Positions 17,785 to 32,625 of a stretch of 64,000 nucleotides of DNA are shown piece by piece. Source of the DNA: a phage; the sequence record PZ445511.1. The stretch is one strand, 5' to 3'. The notes below the pieces were generated by a model. That model saw nothing but the letters and a program-made list of their open reading frames with translations, made no database searches and was not told the DNA's origin. Every line of letters starts with the position of its first letter. The first letter of the stretch is position 1. The position numbers and the translations under genes were made by a program.

Positions 17785-18414
17785 TAATAGTGGGGTGCCG
17801 AAACCACTTATGTAACAACACTGCCGTCCTAGTATAATAGGTATTATTAGGGCTTCACCGCCTGAAGATGTGGGTTCGAGTCCCACGGTCGGAAAGAGTT
17901 GGATAACTGGTGCTTCTAATGGCGAAGCAATCGCAGGCAGTTGCGCACTGCCAAAACCACGCGGTAGTTGGTTCCAGGCTAACCAACCACTCTTGAAAAG
18001 TATATACTACGGTTTTGCTTGTTCAGGAAGCTTCGCATCGAAAATCGGAGGTGCGATTTTATCAGACCGCGTGGAGGACGTCTCTCCGTTAAGTGACGAA
18101 AAGTGGGACGATTCAGGTAGAGCTGGATATGGAACACCTATACATATGCGGAGTGCGCACAAAGCATATTGCGGTGGTACTAAACGAAATTAGGAGTCAT
18201 GACCTGCACAAGTTTAGTATGTCATAACCGATGTACATTCAGTACAAAAACCACTGAAGCTAAGATAGATAGTCACCTTGACTTAAACTGGAAGATATTG
18301 TCTGACGGAAGGGCTGCAGAGCTTAATCTGAGGGGGCTGACCCTACCTACCGTCGGGTATCTTTAAGAGTTCTTACGAGAACTCTTAAAGATACCTAAAC
18401 ATTAAGGAATACTG
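17785..18414 (+). ncRNA. structured non-coding region (T-arm-like element and 17-bp perfect hairpin); identity unresolved
   Basis: 630 bp without convincing ORF or promoter; gtgggttcgagtcccac at 17870-17886; hairpin 18357-18394. Confidence 0.3.
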
Positions 18415-24582: not shown

Positions 24583-24654
24583 GCACCTATCGTCTAATGG
24601 TTAGGACATCAGGATTTCAATCTGAGAATTGAACTCCGATTCTCCGTGGGTGTG
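24583..24654 (+). tRNA. tRNA-like, probable tRNA-Glu(UUC) with degenerate T-arm
   Basis: acceptor gcaccta/tgggtgt with G-U pairs, good D and anticodon stems, loop atttcaa, CCA encoded. Confidence 0.4.
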
Positions 24655-24666
24655 CCAATTAATAAT

Positions 24667-28922: not shown

Positions 28923-29099
28923 CCAAACATTGGATTAACTCATGATGAAAACTCCTATAACTGATATCTGGTTAGCTGTTAATACATCAACTAAAGAGTA
29001 TGTGTTTATAGAGTATGGTCAGAGGTATGACCAAAAGATGTATAATCTCATACTTCCAGTATCTGCTAATGAAGTTTATGATTTAATCCTGAGATCTAC

Positions 29100-29189
29100 G
29101 GAAGAGCAAATCGATTAGGTGACGAAAACCGCTTGGAAAGTGGCTGACTTGTTAAAGCAGGCTTGAGAGTTCGAATCTCTCTTCTTCCG
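29100..29189 (+). tRNA. tRNA-Ser(GGA)
   Basis: 90 nt, acceptor ggaagag/ttcttcc, anticodon loop ttggaaa, long variable arm, discriminator G, CCA. Confidence 0.55.
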
Positions 29190-29213
29190 CCAAACAACTA
29201 ATAGGGAATATAA

Positions 29214-29456
29214 ATGAAAGTCAAGATTATGATGTTGGATTTAGCTAATGATAAGTTTTTCTTGCGTCATACATTCCCTAGTAAGCAAGCTTTAGAGTTT
29301 CATATCAAGTACGCAATGGGCATGAAACTTCCTGAGCGAGAAATATTTGATAAAGCATGTGATACTGGAGTTATTTATGTATGGCAAACAACCTATCATG
29401 ATAATCCAGAAGATCTTCGAAAAGAAGTAGAACAAATACTAGAAGATAGTACGTAG
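29214..29456 (+). CDS. hypothetical protein
   Basis: 80 aa; 3' end overlaps tRNA-Ser(UGA) by 16 nt. Confidence 0.5.
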   Translation: MKVKIMMLDLANDKFFLRHTFPSKQALEFHIKYAMGMKLPEREIFDKACDTGVIYVWQTTYHDNPEDLRKEVEQILEDST

Positions 29457-29527
29457 TGGTATGTAACCGGTCTTGAAAACCGGCCCGCTGTAGTGATACG
29501 GTGATGGTTCGACTCCATTATCTTCTG
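29441..29527 (+). tRNA. tRNA-Ser(UGA)
   Basis: acceptor agaagat/atcttct perfect, anticodon stem ccggt/accgg, loop cttgaaa, long variable arm, discriminator G, CCA. Confidence 0.7.
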
Positions 29528-29530
29528 CCA

Positions 29531-29667
29531 AATCTTGAAGTATGCCGGAATCGGTAGACGGGGCTTCCTAAAGGGCGTAAGGGGAACATCCACTCCTCAT
29601 AAGATACCCGAAAACGAGGCTGAGATAACTGGTCTATCTCGTGAAGGTTCGAGTCCTTCTGCTTCTT
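29531..29667 (+). ncRNA. tRNA-like RNA with canonical T-arm but no clean cloverleaf
   Basis: T-arm gaagg-ttcgagt-ccttc at 29643-29659 preceded by hairpin gagata-actggtc-tatctc; best acceptor partner aggggaa at 29580 has a mismatch; no CCA. Confidence 0.3.
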
Positions 29668-29669
29668 GA

Positions 29670-29855
29670 TATTCATCAATGGCTCAAAGTGTAACGGTGC
29701 TATTTGATGCTCTTAGTAAGACTTTCCCGACATGCGTTCGGGAGTAAGCTGCTAAGGCTAGAGTAGAAGAGTTTCGGAGAGCCGCCACAATTGAAGTCTT
29801 TAGAATGGGTATCGCCCTTTAGCCCCTCCGAAAGGGATAACTAGAGATTTCAATT
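29670..29855 (+). ncRNA. structured non-coding segment bounded by 11-bp inverted repeat
   Basis: ccacaattgaa (29776-29786) and ttcaattgtgg (29849-29859) flank a GC hairpin ccctttagcccctccgaaaggg. Confidence 0.25.
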
Positions 29856-29929
29856 GTGGCTATATCATAATTGGTTAATGATCCTGATTGTGAATCAGGC
29901 CTATGTGGATTCGAATTCCACTAGCCACC
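29856..29929 (+). tRNA. tRNA-His(GUG)
   Basis: acceptor gtggcta/tagccac perfect, anticodon stem cctga/tcagg, loop ttgtgaa, T-arm gtgga-ttcgaat-tccac, CCA. Confidence 0.7.
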
Positions 29930-29938
29930 CCAAATATT

Positions 29939-30010
29939 GCGTCCTTATTTCAACGGAAAGAATGTAAAGCTACGAACTTTACGATCGGGGTTCGATTCCC
30001 TGAGGATGCA
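29939..30010 (+). tRNA. tRNA-Arg(ACG)
   Basis: anticodon stem taaag/cttta, loop ctacgaa, T-arm cgggg-ttcgatt-ccctg, CCA. Confidence 0.7.
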
Positions 30011-30037
30011 CCAATTAACTTAAACAGGAAATAAAAT

Positions 30038-30238
30038 ATGGCTGATTTCTGCAAAGAATGCTCTATTGATATGTGGGGCAGAGATACTGGTGATCTTTCT
30101 GGTCTGATTACAGAAGCCGAAGTTAAAGAAGGCTATGGTGCTGTTGTAATCTGTGAAGGTTGTGGCATTATCCGTGTTGATCATAATGGTAAACGTCTAG
30201 AAGAACCTGATCCAATCGCCACGGTTCCTGTAGAATAA
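30038..30238 (+). CDS. Cys-rich small protein (CxxC...CxxC)
   Basis: 66 aa; CKEC...CEGCG. Confidence 0.5.
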   Translation: MADFCKECSIDMWGRDTGDLSGLITEAEVKEGYGAVVICEGCGIIRVDHNGKRLEEPDPIATVPVE

Positions 30239-30245
30239 AAATTAT

Positions 30246-30318
30246 TGGGATGTAGATCAATTGGTAGATCGTCGGCCTCTGACTCCGAAGGTTCCACGTT
30301 CGATCCGTGGCATCCCAG
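30246..30318 (+). tRNA. tRNA-Gln(CUG)
   Basis: U1-A72, anticodon loop ctctgac, T-arm ccacg-ttcgatc-cgtgg, CCA. Confidence 0.65.
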
Positions 30319-30327
30319 CCAAACAAT

Positions 30328-30400
30328 TGGAGAGTAGTGTAACGGTTAGCACAACGGCCTTTGACTCCGTTAATGGTAGGTTCGATTCCTCCTTCTCCAG
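30328..30400 (+). tRNA. tRNA-Gln(UUG)
   Basis: paralog of previous; anticodon loop ctttgac; U1-A72; CCA. Confidence 0.65.
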
Positions 30401-30409
30401 CCAATTTAT

Positions 30410-30481
30410 GCGTGATTAGTTCAGTGGCTAGAATAACTGGCTTCCAACCAGTAGACACGAGTTCGACTCTCGTATCCCGCA
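30410..30481 (+). tRNA. tRNA-Gly(UCC)
   Basis: anticodon stem actgg/ccagt, loop cttccaa, T-arm acgag-ttcgact-ctcgt, CCA. Confidence 0.7.
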
Positions 30482-30500
30482 CCAAATATAAGGAAACGTT

Positions 30501-30722
30501 ATGGACGTTTTTGAGTTTCGTAATAAAAATCCTAATAGACGAGTTTTAATTATTGGTGAAACATACCGAGCTTATGAACAGGAAGACGGTTCGGTTTTAT
30601 TAAATGATGAAAAGCAAGGCTATAGCTTTCATCCAGAAGAAACATATGAAGAATTTCGTACTAAGTTTCTTTTACCAGACTGGCTAGCAATAGCTGAGCA
30701 AAGAGAACCCGAAGAGGGCTGA
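30501..30722 (+). CDS. hypothetical acidic protein
   Basis: 73 aa with AAGGAAA RBS. Confidence 0.5.
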   Translation: MDVFEFRNKNPNRRVLIIGETYRAYEQEDGSVLLNDEKQGYSFHPEETYEEFRTKFLLPDWLAIAEQREPEEG

Positions 30723-30750
30723 TAATCTAAAGCTAAAGGTTGATAAGCAA

Positions 30751-30879
30751 ATGAAGTGTGTTGAGGTTGAGTTGGGTGAAGAACGTTTAAAACTCTCATT
30801 CGAATTTCTACAGCAGTTGGCTATGACAGTAATGTCTGATAAGTCCCTTATATTTGAAAAAGAAATCCCGTTGAAATAA
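30751..30879 (+). CDS. possible small protein (42 aa)
   Basis: ATG with AAAGG upstream; below ORF-track length cutoff. Confidence 0.25.
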   Translation: MKCVEVELGEERLKLSFEFLQQLAMTVMSDKSLIFEKEIPLK

Positions 30880-30889
30880 TGGGTTTATT

Positions 30890-30961
30890 GCTCCTAAAGC
30901 ATTGCTGGCGATGCAGTTGCCTTGTAAGCATCTGAACCGGGTTCGATTCCAGGTGGGAGCA
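30890..30961 (+). tRNA. tRNA-Thr(UGU)
   Basis: acceptor gctccta/tgggagc, anticodon loop cttgtaa, T-loop ttcgatt, CCA; single mismatches in stems. Confidence 0.55.
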
Positions 30962-30980
30962 CCAAATTTAAAAAATTCAT

Positions 30981-31009
30981 TTGCCTTCTCTCTTATTTCT
31001 TGTTATAAT
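30981..31009 (+). promoter_or_regulatory. early promoter (TTGCCT-17-TATAAT)
   Basis: promoter family member. Confidence 0.65.
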
Positions 31010-31039
31010 ATTTATATAAATTAATTAGAGGGAAACCAA

Positions 31040-31333
31040 ATGAAACGTTATCTTTCTGTCGTGTTCCAAACTGGTGGTCAACGCTACACTTATGAATTTC
31101 CTGAGTCCTGGAAAATTAAAGAAGGTGATCAAGTTGTTGTATTAACACCTCGTGAAGGCTTCAAAGTAGTAACGGTTAAACAAGTATTTCCAAAAGATCA
31201 CGAACCATCTAAGTCTATTCAGTACAAGATGATTCACGGTCTGGTACGAAAAGTACCTAGAACAGAAGTCGAAGTAGATAAAACTGGGGGAGTTAAGTAT
31301 CAATATACATCCTACTTAGACGAGATGATGTAA
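31040..31333 (+). CDS. hypothetical protein
   Basis: 97 aa ORF. Confidence 0.55.
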   Translation: MKRYLSVVFQTGGQRYTYEFPESWKIKEGDQVVVLTPREGFKVVTVKQVFPKDHEPSKSIQYKMIHGLVRKVPRTEVEVDKTGGVKYQYTSYLDEMM

Positions 31334-31533
31334 TGAGAATTACTTTCACAGAAAAGATTATGTGTAATGGTGTTATGATCATTACAGCGTGGGACGGTAA
31401 ATTGTGGTGTAACGTATCTGGTCTAAAGCCAGAAGATCAAACACCTGAAAACATCCGCAAAGTAAAGCGAAAAATGGCGGAACGTGCCCAACTTCCAGGT
31501 GCTCCAAGAAATGGAGGCTATTTTTCAACCTAA
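31333..31533 (+). CDS. hypothetical protein
   Basis: 66 aa ORF, start overlaps upstream stop. Confidence 0.5.
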   Translation: MRITFTEKIMCNGVMIITAWDGKLWCNVSGLKPEDQTPENIRKVKRKMAERAQLPGAPRNGGYFST

Positions 31534-31534
31534 T

Positions 31535-31607
31535 GCTCCGATAGTTCAACAGGTTAGAACAGGCGACCGATAATCGTCAAATCTTGGTTCGATCCCAAGT
31601 CGGAGTA
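31535..31607 (+). tRNA. tRNA-Ile(GAU)
   Basis: D-stem gttc/gaac, anticodon stem ggcga/tcgtc, loop ccgataa, T-arm cttgg-ttcgatc-ccaag, CCA. Confidence 0.6.
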
Positions 31608-31616
31608 CCAAATTAT

Positions 31617-31689
31617 AGTTAGTTGGCAGAACGGTTATGCACCTCCTTCATACGGAGCGACTACAGTGGTTCAACTCCACTACTAACTA
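31617..31689 (+). tRNA. tRNA-Met/Ile(CAU)
   Basis: acceptor agttagt/actaact perfect, anticodon loop ttcatac, T-arm agtgg-ttcaact-ccact, CCA. Confidence 0.55.
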
Positions 31690-31875
31690 CCAAAGATAAG
31701 ATCAGGCCTTTGTGCCAGATCTCTGTGTTTATTAAACTGAATGGGACTATCAATCCACAAGCCGGACTACGAGCGATTATCGGGTATTCACTTAATAAAC
31801 AGCCTGCCTCCCAGTTTTTATCTTGCTTCTGGGTTAACAAAAAGCTGAGCCAAATTCTAACATCAGGGAGATCTA

Positions 31876-32244
31876 ATGAAAGCATATCAAAGTCTTAAGT
31901 CTGGCGTAATTAACATTGTTCATAACAATCAGATCATTCAACTATATTCTAAAGATGGTAAACTTAAACAGAAAGTTCTAGTCGAAGATCTAGAAGGTAT
32001 CACACCTCACTTTGACCCTGAGGCCTTTCGCATTGTAGATGTGGAAGTGGTTCCTCAAGTCGAGGGTGGTCAGCACCTAAATGTCAATGTGTTAAGCCGT
32101 GATCAGCTTTTGGATGCACAGAAACATCCTGAAAAATATCCTCAGTTGACCATCCGTGTCTCTGGCTATGCTGTTCGATTTAACGCATTGACGCGTGAAC
32201 AACAGAACGACGTTATTAGTCGTACATTTACTCAGGCGATATAA
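31876..32244 (+). CDS. grcA: autonomous glycyl-radical cofactor (GrcA/YfiD-like)
   Basis: 122 aa; C-terminal block GGQHLNVNV...[20 protein letters not shown] matches my recollection of E. coli GrcA including the RVSGY radical motif. Confidence 0.75.
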
Positions 32245-32325
32245 TGGGGTTTGGATACGATTTCTCCCAGCTACGCAAGGTAGTCGAGCAAACTCCATTT
32301 ATCTCCCAAGTTTTAGGAGAAATGT

Positions 32326-32625
32326 GTGGATCGAGCATTAAGACGCCATCACCGGCAACGTGTGAAAAACAATCGCAAAAAGTATTGGACAGTCTTCCCA
32401 CATGAAGAAAGTCCTAAGCGGTTAGGCATTATCACTACCACTCCTTGCATCTGTTCTTGTTGGATGTGTGGGAATCCTCGCAAATACTATAAGAATAGTA
32501 AAGCAGGTATGAAAATCTCGGAGATTAAAAAGATGGGTGCAATGATTATGGGCATCACCTTTACAGGCGGTATCTCTGATGAATTCGACGGTTTTGTAAC
32601 TCAGGATATTGTCGAAATTATCTAA
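32326..32625 (+). CDS. hypothetical basic, Cys-containing protein (GTG start)
   Basis: 99 aa; AGGAGA RBS 6 nt upstream of GTG; CICSCWMC cluster. Confidence 0.4.
   Translation: MDRALRRHHRQRVKNNRKKYWTVFPHEESPKRLGIITTTPCICSCWMCGNPRKYYKNSKAGMKISEIKKMGAMIMGITFTGGISDEFDGFVTQDIVEII

What the first reader, a model, noticed from the sequence alone, without database searches (positions are those of the whole stretch)
29531..29667. Second tRNA-like element with a canonical T-arm but no cloverleaf
A textbook T-arm (GAAGG-TTCGAGT-CCTTC) and 3' acceptor strand are preceded by a 6-bp hairpin and GC-rich segments that I could not fold into a D-arm and anticodon arm. There is no CCA, unlike nearly all the neighbouring tRNAs.
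Basis: seen in the sequence. Interest (0 to 1): 0.4.

Follow-up and report, generated by a model that had tools for sequence, protein, structure and literature searches.

The report
Phage T5 RNA1: anticodon-less tRNA mimic
This is the local copy of "RNA1", a small stable RNA already annotated in phages T5 and BF23: a leucine-type tRNA whose anticodon loop has been replaced by a conserved 48-base extension, so it keeps the tRNA shape but cannot read a codon, and its job is still unknown.

Summary
There is a perfect T-arm (29643-29659), a 3' acceptor strand, a 6-bp hairpin and no CCA, and neither standard ARAGORN nor Rfam calls a tRNA. The interpretation "no cloverleaf" is wrong.

- **Fold.** In 30 distinct homologues the element folds as a long-variable-arm (class II), tRNA-Leu-like cloverleaf. 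It has an acceptor stem, D-arm, 5-bp anticodon stem, 7-bp variable arm and T-arm. 97.9% of pair cells are paired, and 15 of 36 pairs show compensatory changes, against 2-3 in shifted controls.
- **Anticodon loop.** It is replaced by a 48-nt rod made of two covarying helices. The rod ends in an almost invariant 8-nt loop, ACAUCC(A/G)C.
- **Intron reading.** ARAGORN with introns allowed finds the same cloverleaf. The "anticodon" it assigns changes between lineages (Phe, Met, Leu, Val), so this is not a decoding tRNA.
- **Identity.** It is about 80% identical over the whole element to "rna1: tRNA-like stable RNA with unknown functions" in the T5 and BF23 GenBank records. It occurs in 493 T5-like phage records.
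- **Dispensability.** It lies inside a T5 deletion that leaves the phage viable.

Verdict: an already annotated RNA family that is absent from Rfam and has no known function. It most likely acts as a non-decoding tRNA mimic.

The parts
29441..29530 (+). Context: tRNA-Ser(UGA), ending in CCA. Five bases separate it from the first acceptor base of the element, the same spacing as between neighbouring tRNAs in this cluster.
   Evidence: ARAGORN; sequence
29532..29534 (+). 5' leader bases AUC that can pair with trailer GAU (29668-29670) across a UU/UU internal loop. The T5 record starts RNA1 at the C equivalent to 29534.
   Evidence: Pairs 3:139 and 4:138 are paired in 30/30 sequences. Pair 3:139 occurs as U-A, A-U and G-C. 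RNAalifold also predicts them. T5 annotation.
29536..29542 (+). Acceptor stem, 5' strand (U)GAAGUA.
   Evidence: 5 of 6 pairs show changes on both sides; 98.9% of cells are paired.
29543..29562 (+). U8 and G9 equivalents, the class II D-arm (CCG / GAAUCGGUAGA / CGG) and the G26 equivalent. U8, A14, A15 and G18G19 are all present.
   Evidence: ARAGORN -i cloverleaf. The columns are invariant apart from the usual variable D-loop positions 16/17. The stem is not tested by covariation, and RNAalifold prefers a local hairpin 13-17/22-26.
29563..29567 (+). Anticodon-stem equivalent, 5' strand GCUUC. It pairs with 29616-29620.
   Evidence: 3 of 5 pairs have compensatory changes; 98.7% paired.
29568..29615 (+). 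48-nt insertion in place of the anticodon loop. In order: internal loop, inner helix (29573-29576 with 29606-29609), internal loop, apical hairpin (29580-29599).
   Evidence: Inner helix: 2 of 4 pairs compensatory. Apical helix: 4 of 6 pairs compensatory. The helices proposed only by the minimum-free-energy fold fail in most homologues.
29586..29593 (+). Apical 8-nt loop ACAUCCAC. It is invariant apart from one A-to-G change in T5, in phages of Escherichia, Salmonella, Klebsiella, Enterobacter and Pectobacterium.
   Evidence: Alignment A2; metagenome variants.
29616..29620 (+). Anticodon-stem equivalent, 3' strand GAGGC.
29621..29641 (+). Long variable arm: 7-bp stem and a 7-nt loop A(C/A)UGGUC.
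   Evidence: 99.5% paired, with A-U / U-A / C-G exchange at one pair. Five of the seven loop positions (U100-C104) are invariant; A98 belongs to the closing pair.
29642..29659 (+). U48 equivalent plus the T-arm GAAGG-UUCGAGU-CCUUC.
   Evidence: 100% paired. The loop varies only at tRNA positions 57 (R), 59 and 60.
29660..29667 (+). Acceptor stem 3' strand UGCUUC(U), then a U at the discriminator position. No CCA.
29668..29680 (+). Trailer/spacer up to the 5' G of RNA I. T5 and BF23 include the equivalent bases in their 144-nt RNA1.
29681..29787 (+). Context: orthologue of T5/BF23 RNA I (107 nt), ending ...GAGAGCC-GCCA.

Best explanation
The element is the orthologue of phage T5/BF23 RNA1 in an Epseptimavirus-type T5-like phage. 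It is a stable non-coding RNA derived from a class II, leucine-type tRNA.

**Shown here**
- It keeps the acceptor stem, the T-arm and a 5-bp anticodon stem. It also keeps the nucleotides that build the tRNA elbow (U8, A14, A15-U48, G18G19, T54-A58).
- It has a 7-bp variable arm.
- The anticodon loop is replaced by a 48-nt irregular rod of two further covarying helices. The rod is capped by a nearly invariant loop, ACAUCC(A/G)C.
- No anticodon is conserved and no CCA is encoded.
- The family is maintained independently of its neighbours.

**Inferred**
- It is co-transcribed with the flanking tRNAs and released by the host tRNA-processing enzymes. RNase P, which recognises the acceptor/T-arm stack and the elbow, probably acts at or near its 5' side.
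- It accumulates unspliced and uncharged.
- It does not decode. It probably works as a tRNA mimic: the tRNA body docks it on a host or phage factor that recognises tRNA shape. The extended arm and the two conserved loops make the specific contact or block the reaction normally done at the anticodon.
- Its dispensability in laboratory E. coli fits an accessory role, such as counter-defence or tuning of tRNA metabolism.

**My confidence by level**
- Identity as RNA1: about 0.97.
- Fold: about 0.9.
- Non-decoding functional RNA: about 0.8.
- Mimic or decoy mode of action: about 0.3.
For: **Homology and synteny**
- 80% identity over the whole element to BF23 rna1 and T5 rna1. These are annotated "tRNA-like (stable) RNA with unknown functions".
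- The gene order is the same: tRNA-Ser(UGA), RNA1, RNA I, RNA III, tRNA-His.
- 493 phage records hold it, all at 80% coverage or more.

**Fold**
- 97.9% of pair cells are paired, and 15 of 36 pairs have double-sided changes. Shifted controls give 39-50% paired and 2-3 such pairs. None of 500 shuffles reaches the observed values.
- RNAalifold independently recovers every helix except the D stem.
- ARAGORN in intron mode draws the same cloverleaf.
- Single changes in extra metagenome variants are wobble-compatible.

**Leucine-type origin**
- The model built from the family scores the phage's own tRNA-Leu(UAG) at 38.7 bits and tRNA-Leu(UAA) at 30.4 bits. Every other tRNA scores 22.9 bits or less.
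- In the T5 lineage the 3' side of the insertion reads CUUAAAA, a perfect Leu-UAA anticodon loop.

**Not decoding**
- The anticodon that ARAGORN assigns differs by lineage: Phe-AAA, Met-CAU, Leu-UAA, Val-AAC.
- The apical loop is far more conserved than that segment.

**Not coding**
- The ORFs that span it in the window are broken in other lineages.

**Autonomous module**
- RNA1 persists where RNA I or the upstream tRNA-Ser is absent.

**Dispensable**
- T5-123 deletes 29191-32442 in AY543070 coordinates. That covers rna1 at 30501-30644, and the phage still grows (PMC11464382).
- The region is a known deletion hotspot (PMC12483538).
Against: - No expression, end-mapping or binding data could be read. 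"Stable RNA" rests only on the wording of the T5 and BF23 GenBank records.
- The D stem never varies, so covariation does not test it. RNAalifold prefers a competing local hairpin.
- The single-sequence fold is not unusually stable (z = -0.74).
- The acceptor helix has a U.U at the 1:72 position, and the leader and trailer can pair. That could hinder RNase P, and the T5 record starts the RNA 2-3 nt upstream of the canonical site.
- No binding partner or target is identified. Complements of the apical loop occur in the window at chance level only.
- Dispensability is equally compatible with a marginal role.
Confidence: 0.6

Rival explanations
1. It is a genuine decoding tRNA gene interrupted by a 40-41-nt intron in the anticodon loop. 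This is how one phage record annotates it: tRNA-Phe(AAA).
For: In T5 and BF23, removing 40 nt leaves a perfect Leu-UAA anticodon loop.
Against: - The predicted anticodon and intron position change between close relatives: Phe, Met, Leu, Val.
- With fixed boundaries, most lineages are left with an 8-nt loop.
- The supposed intron contains the most conserved bases of the element, together with covarying helices.
- From general knowledge: 41 nt is far too short for a group I intron, and no other tRNA-splicing route is known in enterobacteria.
- No CCA is encoded and the discriminator is U.
- T5 and BF23 annotate a 144-nt, unspliced RNA.
Confidence: 0.04
2. It is a decaying tRNA pseudogene: a tRNA-Leu gene disrupted by an insertion and carried along without function.
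For: It has no CCA and no usable anticodon. Standard tRNA finders do not call it. It lies in a dispensable, deletion-prone region.
Against: - All helices are kept by compensatory changes across phages of at least five host genera.
- The tertiary-interaction bases and two loops are invariant.
- It is present in 493 records at full length.
- It is kept even where its neighbours are lost.

A neutral relic would not keep 97.9% pairing.
Confidence: 0.05
3. It has no function of its own as a free RNA. It is a tRNA-shaped processing signal (punctuation) that recruits RNase P and other tRNA nucleases to cut the polycistronic transcript, or that protects neighbouring RNAs and small-ORF mRNAs.
For: It sits in line in the tRNA array with tRNA-like spacing and directly upstream of RNA I. 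No promoter or terminator signal of its own exceeds chance. T4 likewise makes its species I and II RNAs from the tRNA precursor (PMC2330249).
Against: - A processing signal needs only the acceptor/T-arm half.
- It does not explain the strict conservation of the 48-nt extension, its apical loop or the variable-arm loop.
- RNA1 persists in genomes without RNA I and with different upstream neighbours.
Confidence: 0.15
4. It is a small protein gene. The candidates are a 44-aa ORF on the + strand at 29535-29669 and a 53-aa ORF on the - strand at 29518-29679. Several phage records annotate hypothetical proteins here.
For: Both ORFs are open in the window. CDS features overlap the element in vB_SenS-3, Roth49 and PMBT22.
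Against: Both frames are interrupted in other lineages: the longest open stretch falls from 45-46 codons to 17-29. The T5 group carries a 1-nt deletion. The substitutions are compensatory for RNA pairing.
Confidence: 0.01

Closest known systems
RNA1 (rna1) of phages T5 (AY543070, 30501-30644) and BF23 (NC_042564, 3237-3380)
   Same: About 80% identity over the whole length, the same helices, the same position between tRNA-Ser(UGA) and RNA I / tRNA-His, and no CCA.
   Different: - In the window it directly follows tRNA-Ser, whereas T5 and BF23 have a small ORF in between.
- Acceptor-stem and inner-helix sequences differ by compensatory changes.
- The 3' side of the first internal loop is 1 nt longer and does not read as a Leu anticodon loop.
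Class II tRNA-Leu
   Same: - Acceptor stem, T-arm and a 3-bp D stem.
- The D-loop AAUYGGUAGA, and the A15-U48 combination.
- A long variable arm.
- Highest cross-score of the family model among the phage's own tRNAs.
- The resemblance to the E. coli tRNA-Leu D-arm is recalled from memory and was not tested.
   Different: - No 7-nt anticodon loop: 48 nt sit in its place.
- The variable stem of 7 bp is longer than is usual for Leu.
- The discriminator is U rather than A.
- There is no CCA.
- No Rfam tRNA match at all (no RF00005 hit even at E<=10).
T4 species I and II RNAs (rnaC, rnaD)
   Same: Small stable RNAs of unknown function, encoded inside a phage tRNA cluster and cut from the same precursor as the tRNAs (PMC2330249).
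   Different: blastn with the element returned only records that match it almost end to end, and every record examined is T5-like. The structures of the T4 RNAs were not compared here.
tmRNA tRNA-like domain
   Same: A tRNA mimic with an acceptor stem and T-arm and no anticodon (from general knowledge).
   Different: - ARAGORN's tmRNA search and Rfam find nothing.
- RNA1 has a real D stem and an anticodon stem.
- It has no tag reading frame, no G3-U70 pair and no CCA.
- Pseudoknots were not looked for.
Bacterial Y-RNA-like YrlA, and other non-decoding tRNA mimics (B. cereus tRNA-Other, herpesvirus MHV68 tRNA-like RNAs, mascRNA)
   Same: A tRNA-shaped module attached to, or replacing, a functional stem. 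These RNAs are processed by tRNA enzymes but are not used for decoding (from general knowledge).
   Different: - No Rfam match.
- In YrlA the RNA ends lie in the stem that replaces the anticodon arm. Here the ends lie in the acceptor stem and the anticodon arm is closed, so the topology is the circular permutation.
- There is no evidence of a common origin.

Membership tests
T5/BF23 RNA1 (tRNA-like stable RNA) | Sequence homology over the full length to the annotated rna1 of T5 and BF23 | tested here: met
   80.4% identity to BF23 and 79.7% to T5, over positions 3-140.
T5/BF23 RNA1 (tRNA-like stable RNA) | Same genomic position in the tRNA cluster: after tRNA-Ser(UGA), before RNA I and tRNA-His | tested here: met
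T5/BF23 RNA1 (tRNA-like stable RNA) | Shared secondary structure | tested here: met
   One structure fits all 30 distinct homologues, with 97.9% of cells paired and 15 covarying pairs. The family model scores the window copy at 159 bits.
T5/BF23 RNA1 (tRNA-like stable RNA) | Accumulates as a stable RNA of about 144 nt in infected cells | not testable with these tools
   Only the wording of the GenBank records is available. The primary papers are not in the library.
Canonical tRNA (Rfam RF00005 / ARAGORN) | Cloverleaf with a 7-nt anticodon loop and a score above the family threshold | tested here: not met
   No ARAGORN call in standard mode. No RF00005 match even at E<=10.
Canonical tRNA (Rfam RF00005 / ARAGORN) | Acceptor stem, D-arm, T-arm and elbow nucleotides | tested here: met
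   The D stem is supported by ARAGORN and by conservation only, not by covariation.
Canonical tRNA (Rfam RF00005 / ARAGORN) | Anticodon conserved among orthologues | tested here: not met
   Phe-AAA, Met-CAU, Leu-UAA and Val-AAC in different lineages.
Canonical tRNA (Rfam RF00005 / ARAGORN) | 3' CCA, which is encoded in this cluster | tested here: not met
   The acceptor strand is followed by UUGA. 28 of 29 neighbours encode CCA. Addition after transcription is not testable here.
Intron-containing bacterial or phage tRNA | An intron of a type that can be spliced (group I fold), leaving a conserved 7-nt anticodon loop | tested here: not met
   The insert is 40-48 nt with no Rfam intron match. 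The loop left after removal is neither conserved in sequence nor constant in length.
tmRNA | tRNA-like domain together with a tag reading frame, detected by ARAGORN or Rfam | tested here: not met
YrlA / bacterial Y RNA | Match to a described family model, with the RNA ends in a Ro/Rsr-binding stem | tested here: not met
   Nothing credible in Rfam for this element. The ends lie in the acceptor stem. Rsr binding is not testable here.

The most novel reading that the evidence does not exclude
RNA1 is a dedicated counter-defence or host-takeover RNA. It would be a tRNA-Leu-derived decoy whose intact tRNA body engages a tRNA-recognising host enzyme, for example an anticodon nuclease of an abortive-infection system, a class II synthetase or a tRNA-processing enzyme. 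Its uncleavable extended arm and conserved loops would then trap or redirect that enzyme. One concrete variant: the invariant UGGU of the variable loop pairs with NCCA 3' ends, as T-box and RNase P RNAs do. This would add an RNA decoy to the known role of T5 tRNAs in defeating PARIS and retron Eco7.
Probability: 0.15. Interest if true: 0.7.

Novelty: already known. Interest (0 to 1): 0.3.

Why it matters
T5-like phages are workhorses of current phage-defence research, and their tRNA cluster is now known to neutralise tRNA-cleaving immune systems. RNA1 sits in that cluster and is conserved in nearly 500 sequenced phages. It keeps a complete tRNA body while discarding the anticodon.

Despite that, it has no assigned function and no Rfam family. 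Genome records mislabel it as tRNA-Phe or as hypothetical proteins, or leave it unannotated.

The covariation-backed structure given here could seed an Rfam family and correct those annotations. It also points to two loops as the obvious targets for mutagenesis. For this scan, however, the element is a recognisable member of a known family, not a discovery.

Tried and rejected
- **Rfam.** Searches at E<=1 over 16 kb and at E<=10 over the element plus RNA I and RNA III gave nothing credible.
- **Minimum-free-energy fold of the single sequence.** Four of its helices fail in most homologues, with 69-93% pairing, so I rejected it in favour of the comparative model.
- **First specific pattern scan of viral contigs.** It returned zero because I miscounted a spacer by one base. 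I corrected this after checking the patterns locally.
- **Other pattern scans.**
  - The 14-mer scan gave almost only chance matches.
  - The bacterial-genome scan gave only chance matches when screened with blastn and nhmmer.
- **Variable-loop/T-arm scan and metagenome D-arm scan.** These added only T5-like copies plus unrelated sequences. No distant relative outside T5-like phages was found.
- **blastn of an "intron-removed" version against 5,426 E. coli genomes.** No match.
- **Complements of the apical loop in the window.** 5 found against 4.0 expected, one of them the element itself. No antisense target was found.
- **Promoter and terminator scan around the element.** Chance level.
- **Literature.** The primary papers on T5 RNA1, RNA I and RNA III are not in the library. 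Only indirect context could be cited.

Full report
**What the window is.** The region from about 17.8 to 31.7 kb is the tRNA cluster of a T5-like phage. ARAGORN finds 28 tRNAs on the + strand. The 501 bases around the finding are 99.6% identical to Salmonella phage vB_SenS-3, an Epseptimavirus.

**Checking the observation.**
- The T-arm GAAGG-UUCGAGU-CCUUC lies at 29643-29659.
- The 3' acceptor strand UGCUUC(U) lies at 29660-29666.
- A 6-bp hairpin lies at 29622-29627 and 29635-29640.
- The acceptor strand is followed by UUGA. By contrast, 28 of 29 neighbouring tRNAs end in CCA.
- Standard ARAGORN does not call the element.
- Rfam gives no tRNA or any other credible family, even when only 336 bases are searched at E<=10.

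**What it is homologous to.**
- A blastn search of the phage collection hit the BF23 tRNA-region record and the T5 genome. In both, the matching bases are annotated as a misc_RNA named rna1.
  - BF23 describes it as "tRNA-like RNA with unknown functions".
  - T5 describes it as "tRNA-like stable RNA with unknown functions".
- It is 144 nt long. In T5 and BF23 it lies after tRNA-Ser(UGA) and a small ORF, and before RNA I (107 nt), RNA III and tRNA-His.
- The window aligns to BF23 and T5 over the whole element at about 80% identity. It continues into a near-identical RNA I at 29681-29787.
- The element alone finds 493 phage records, every one covering at least 80% of it. The hosts are Salmonella, Escherichia, Klebsiella, Citrobacter, Yersinia, Pectobacterium and others.
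- Some copies are 100% identical to the window.

**Structure.** I collected 34 distinct copies from viral contigs and phage records. I aligned 30 of them (A2). Positions below are numbered so that 1 = window 29531. The comparative model has these helices:

| Helix | Positions |
|---|---|
| Acceptor stem | 7-12 with 130-135 |
| D stem | 15-17 with 29-31 |
| Anticodon-stem equivalent | 33-37 with 86-90 |
| Inner helix | 43-46 with 76-79 |
| Apical helix | 50-55 with 64-69 |
| Variable-arm helix | 91-97 with 105-111 |
| T stem | 113-117 with 125-129 |

- 97.9% of pair cells are standard pairs, and 15 of 36 pairs show changes on both sides.
- Sliding the 3' partners by 1-3 columns gives 39-50% pairing and 2-3 such pairs. 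None of 500 column shuffles reaches the observed values.
- Compensatory pairs per helix: acceptor stem 5, anticodon stem 3, inner helix 2, apical helix 4, variable arm 1.
- The single-sequence minimum-free-energy fold proposes four other helices. These fail in most homologues, with 69-93% pairing.
- RNAalifold, run independently, recovers every helix of my model except the D stem. There it prefers a local hairpin, 13-17 with 22-26.
  - Both alternatives are invariant, so covariation cannot choose between them.
  - The tRNA-type D stem is favoured by ARAGORN's cloverleaf.
  - It is also favoured because U8, A14, A15, G18G19, U48 and the T54-A58 positions are all present and invariant.
  - D-loop and T-loop variation falls exactly on the positions that vary in real tRNAs: 16, 17, 57 (purine), 59 and 60.
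- Six further variants from metagenomes differ only by changes that keep pairing or wobble.

**The element is a cloverleaf with an insertion.** It has a long variable arm, so it is class II. Forty-eight nucleotides (29568-29615) sit where the 7-nt anticodon loop should be.

**Origin.**
- The covariance model built from the family finds no second copy in the window.
- Its next-best hits are the phage's own tRNA-Leu(UAG) at 38.7 bits and tRNA-Leu(UAA) at 30.4 bits. All other tRNAs score 22.9 bits or less.
- In the T5 lineage the 3' side of the insertion reads CUUAAAA, a perfect Leu-UAA anticodon loop.
- A leucine-type class II tRNA is therefore the likely ancestor.
- No recent paralogue exists among the window's tRNAs.
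- blastn against E. coli genomes finds no counterpart.

**Is it a tRNA with an intron?**
In the whole window, this mode adds only this locus.
- One public record annotates it as tRNA-Phe(aaa).
- However, the anticodon that is called changes among close relatives: Phe-AAA at two different positions, Met-CAU, Leu-UAA and Val-AAC.
- With fixed boundaries, most lineages would be left with an 8-nt loop.
- The supposed intron holds the most conserved bases of the element. GGAACAUCCACUCC has a single A-to-G change, in T5. It also holds two covarying helices.
- T5 and BF23 annotate the unspliced length.
- I therefore reject a decoding role.

**Is it coding?** Two ORFs are open across it in the window, and several records annotate hypothetical proteins there. 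Both frames are broken in other lineages, and the T5 group carries a 1-nt deletion. It is not coding.

**Ends and processing (inferred).**
- Five bases separate the CCA of tRNA-Ser from the first acceptor base, as between other tRNAs in the array.
- Nothing resembling its own promoter or terminator exceeds chance.
- Co-transcription and release by host tRNA-processing enzymes are therefore likely.
- Leader bases 3-4 pair with trailer bases 138-139 in all 30 sequences. Pair 3:139 occurs as U-A, A-U and G-C. The acceptor helix may thus continue past a UU/UU internal loop.
- The T5 record starts RNA1 at the C of that extension and ends it at the base before RNA I.
- Whether RNase P cuts at the canonical site cannot be decided here.

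**Autonomy and dispensability.**
- RNA1 is present in phages that lack RNA I, and in phages with different upstream neighbours. The Klebsiella, Pectobacterium and several Epseptimavirus-type copies show this.
- It is therefore not merely a processing signal for RNA I.
- In AY543070 coordinates, the viable T5-123 mutant lacks 29191-32442, which includes rna1 at 30501-30644 (PMC11464382).
- The region is a known deletion hotspot (PMC12483538).
- The role is therefore accessory under laboratory conditions.

**Mechanism.**

*What is shown:*
- The RNA is under selection to keep a full tRNA body, a rod-like extension of the anticodon arm and two invariant loops.
- The loops are ACAUCC(A/G)C at the tip of the rod and A(C/A)UGGUC on the variable arm.
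- It has no conserved anticodon and no encoded CCA.

*What I infer:*
- It acts as a non-decoding tRNA mimic. The body gives it processing, stability and access to proteins that recognise tRNA shape. The extension and loops make the specific contact.
- T5 tRNAs are now known to neutralise tRNA-cleaving defences. Published examples are PARIS (PMC11464382) and retron Eco7 together with anticodon-loop escape (both cited in PMC10644984).
- A decoy or counter-defence role is therefore the most interesting reading that remains open. I found no direct evidence for it: no target complementarity in the window and no relative outside T5-like phages.

**Comparison with known families.**
- It is a member of the T5/BF23 RNA1 family. 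Homology, synteny and structure were all tested and met.
- It is not a canonical tRNA, an intron-containing tRNA, a tmRNA or a Y-RNA-like RNA. Defining features of each were tested and not met.
- Its closest functional analogues are the T4 species I and II RNAs (PMC2330249) and other non-decoding tRNA mimics.

**Verdict.** The finding is real and is explained by an already annotated RNA family of unknown function. Two things are added here: a covariation-backed structure, and the demonstration that the "no cloverleaf", "tRNA-Phe" and "hypothetical protein" readings are all wrong.

Noticed in passing
window 29099-29193 (+): Orthologue of T5/BF23 tRNA-Ser2(GGA), ending in CCA. ARAGORN does not call it, and Rfam gives only a 23.8-bit tRNA-Sec match. 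It is probably the "first tRNA-like element" implied by the finding's title. The T5 record notes that this tRNA cannot be converted into an amber suppressor.
   Followed up: partly
window 29681-29787 (+): Orthologue of T5/BF23 RNA I (107 nt, stable RNA of unknown function). It folds as a rod closed by GGCUC/GAGCC and ends in GCCA, so it has a tRNA-like 3' end although the rest is not tRNA-like. Fold z-score is -2.2. It has no Rfam family.
   Followed up: partly
window 29788-29855 (+): The stretch corresponding to RNA III of T5/BF23 is much shorter here, about 64 nt against 106 nt. It forms a long hairpin closed by CCACAAUUGAA / UUCAAUUGUGG, directly abutting tRNA-His.
   Followed up: no
window 24583-24657 (+): Rfam calls a tRNA here at 35.2 bits, but ARAGORN misses it. 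Read by eye, the anticodon loop is AUUUCAA, which gives tRNA-Glu(UUC). The T-arm is atypical.
   Followed up: partly
window 17822-17895 (+): ARAGORN labels this tRNA-SeC(tca). It is the only tRNA of the cluster without an encoded CCA (it ends AAA) and scores only 33 bits in Rfam. It may be an opal-reading or otherwise unusual tRNA.
   Followed up: no
L149 (Salmonella phage vB_Sen_I1, MT233524), RNA1 copy: A natural chimera. The 5' acceptor strand is of the T5 type (GGAAUA) and the 3' strand is of the window type (UGCUUC). This gives an A.C mismatch and suggests recombination inside the element.
   Followed up: no
L144 (JLBYU43), L002 (vB_SenS-3), L142 (Roth49), L152 (PMBT22): Public records annotate the RNA1 locus inconsistently: as tRNA-Phe(aaa), as hypothetical proteins on either strand, or not at all. 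Only the T5 and BF23 records call it RNA1.
   Followed up: yes
L142 (Klebsiella phage Roth49) 589-728: The Klebsiella-phage copies are 92% identical to the window in the core. Their acceptor stem is completely different and longer: about 11 pairs, including the leader and trailer, with one G.G mismatch. No RNA I follows; a GTGGGG...CCCCAC hairpin follows instead.
   Followed up: partly
L296 (soil metagenome contig Ga0126371_10898887) 396-548: An unrelated sequence with the same class II D-arm (UGCCGGAAUUGGUAGACGGGGCU), followed about 100 nt later by a GGUUCGAAUCC T-loop motif and CGCCA. It scores 22 bits with the RNA1 model. It may be another tRNA carrying a long insertion.
   Followed up: no
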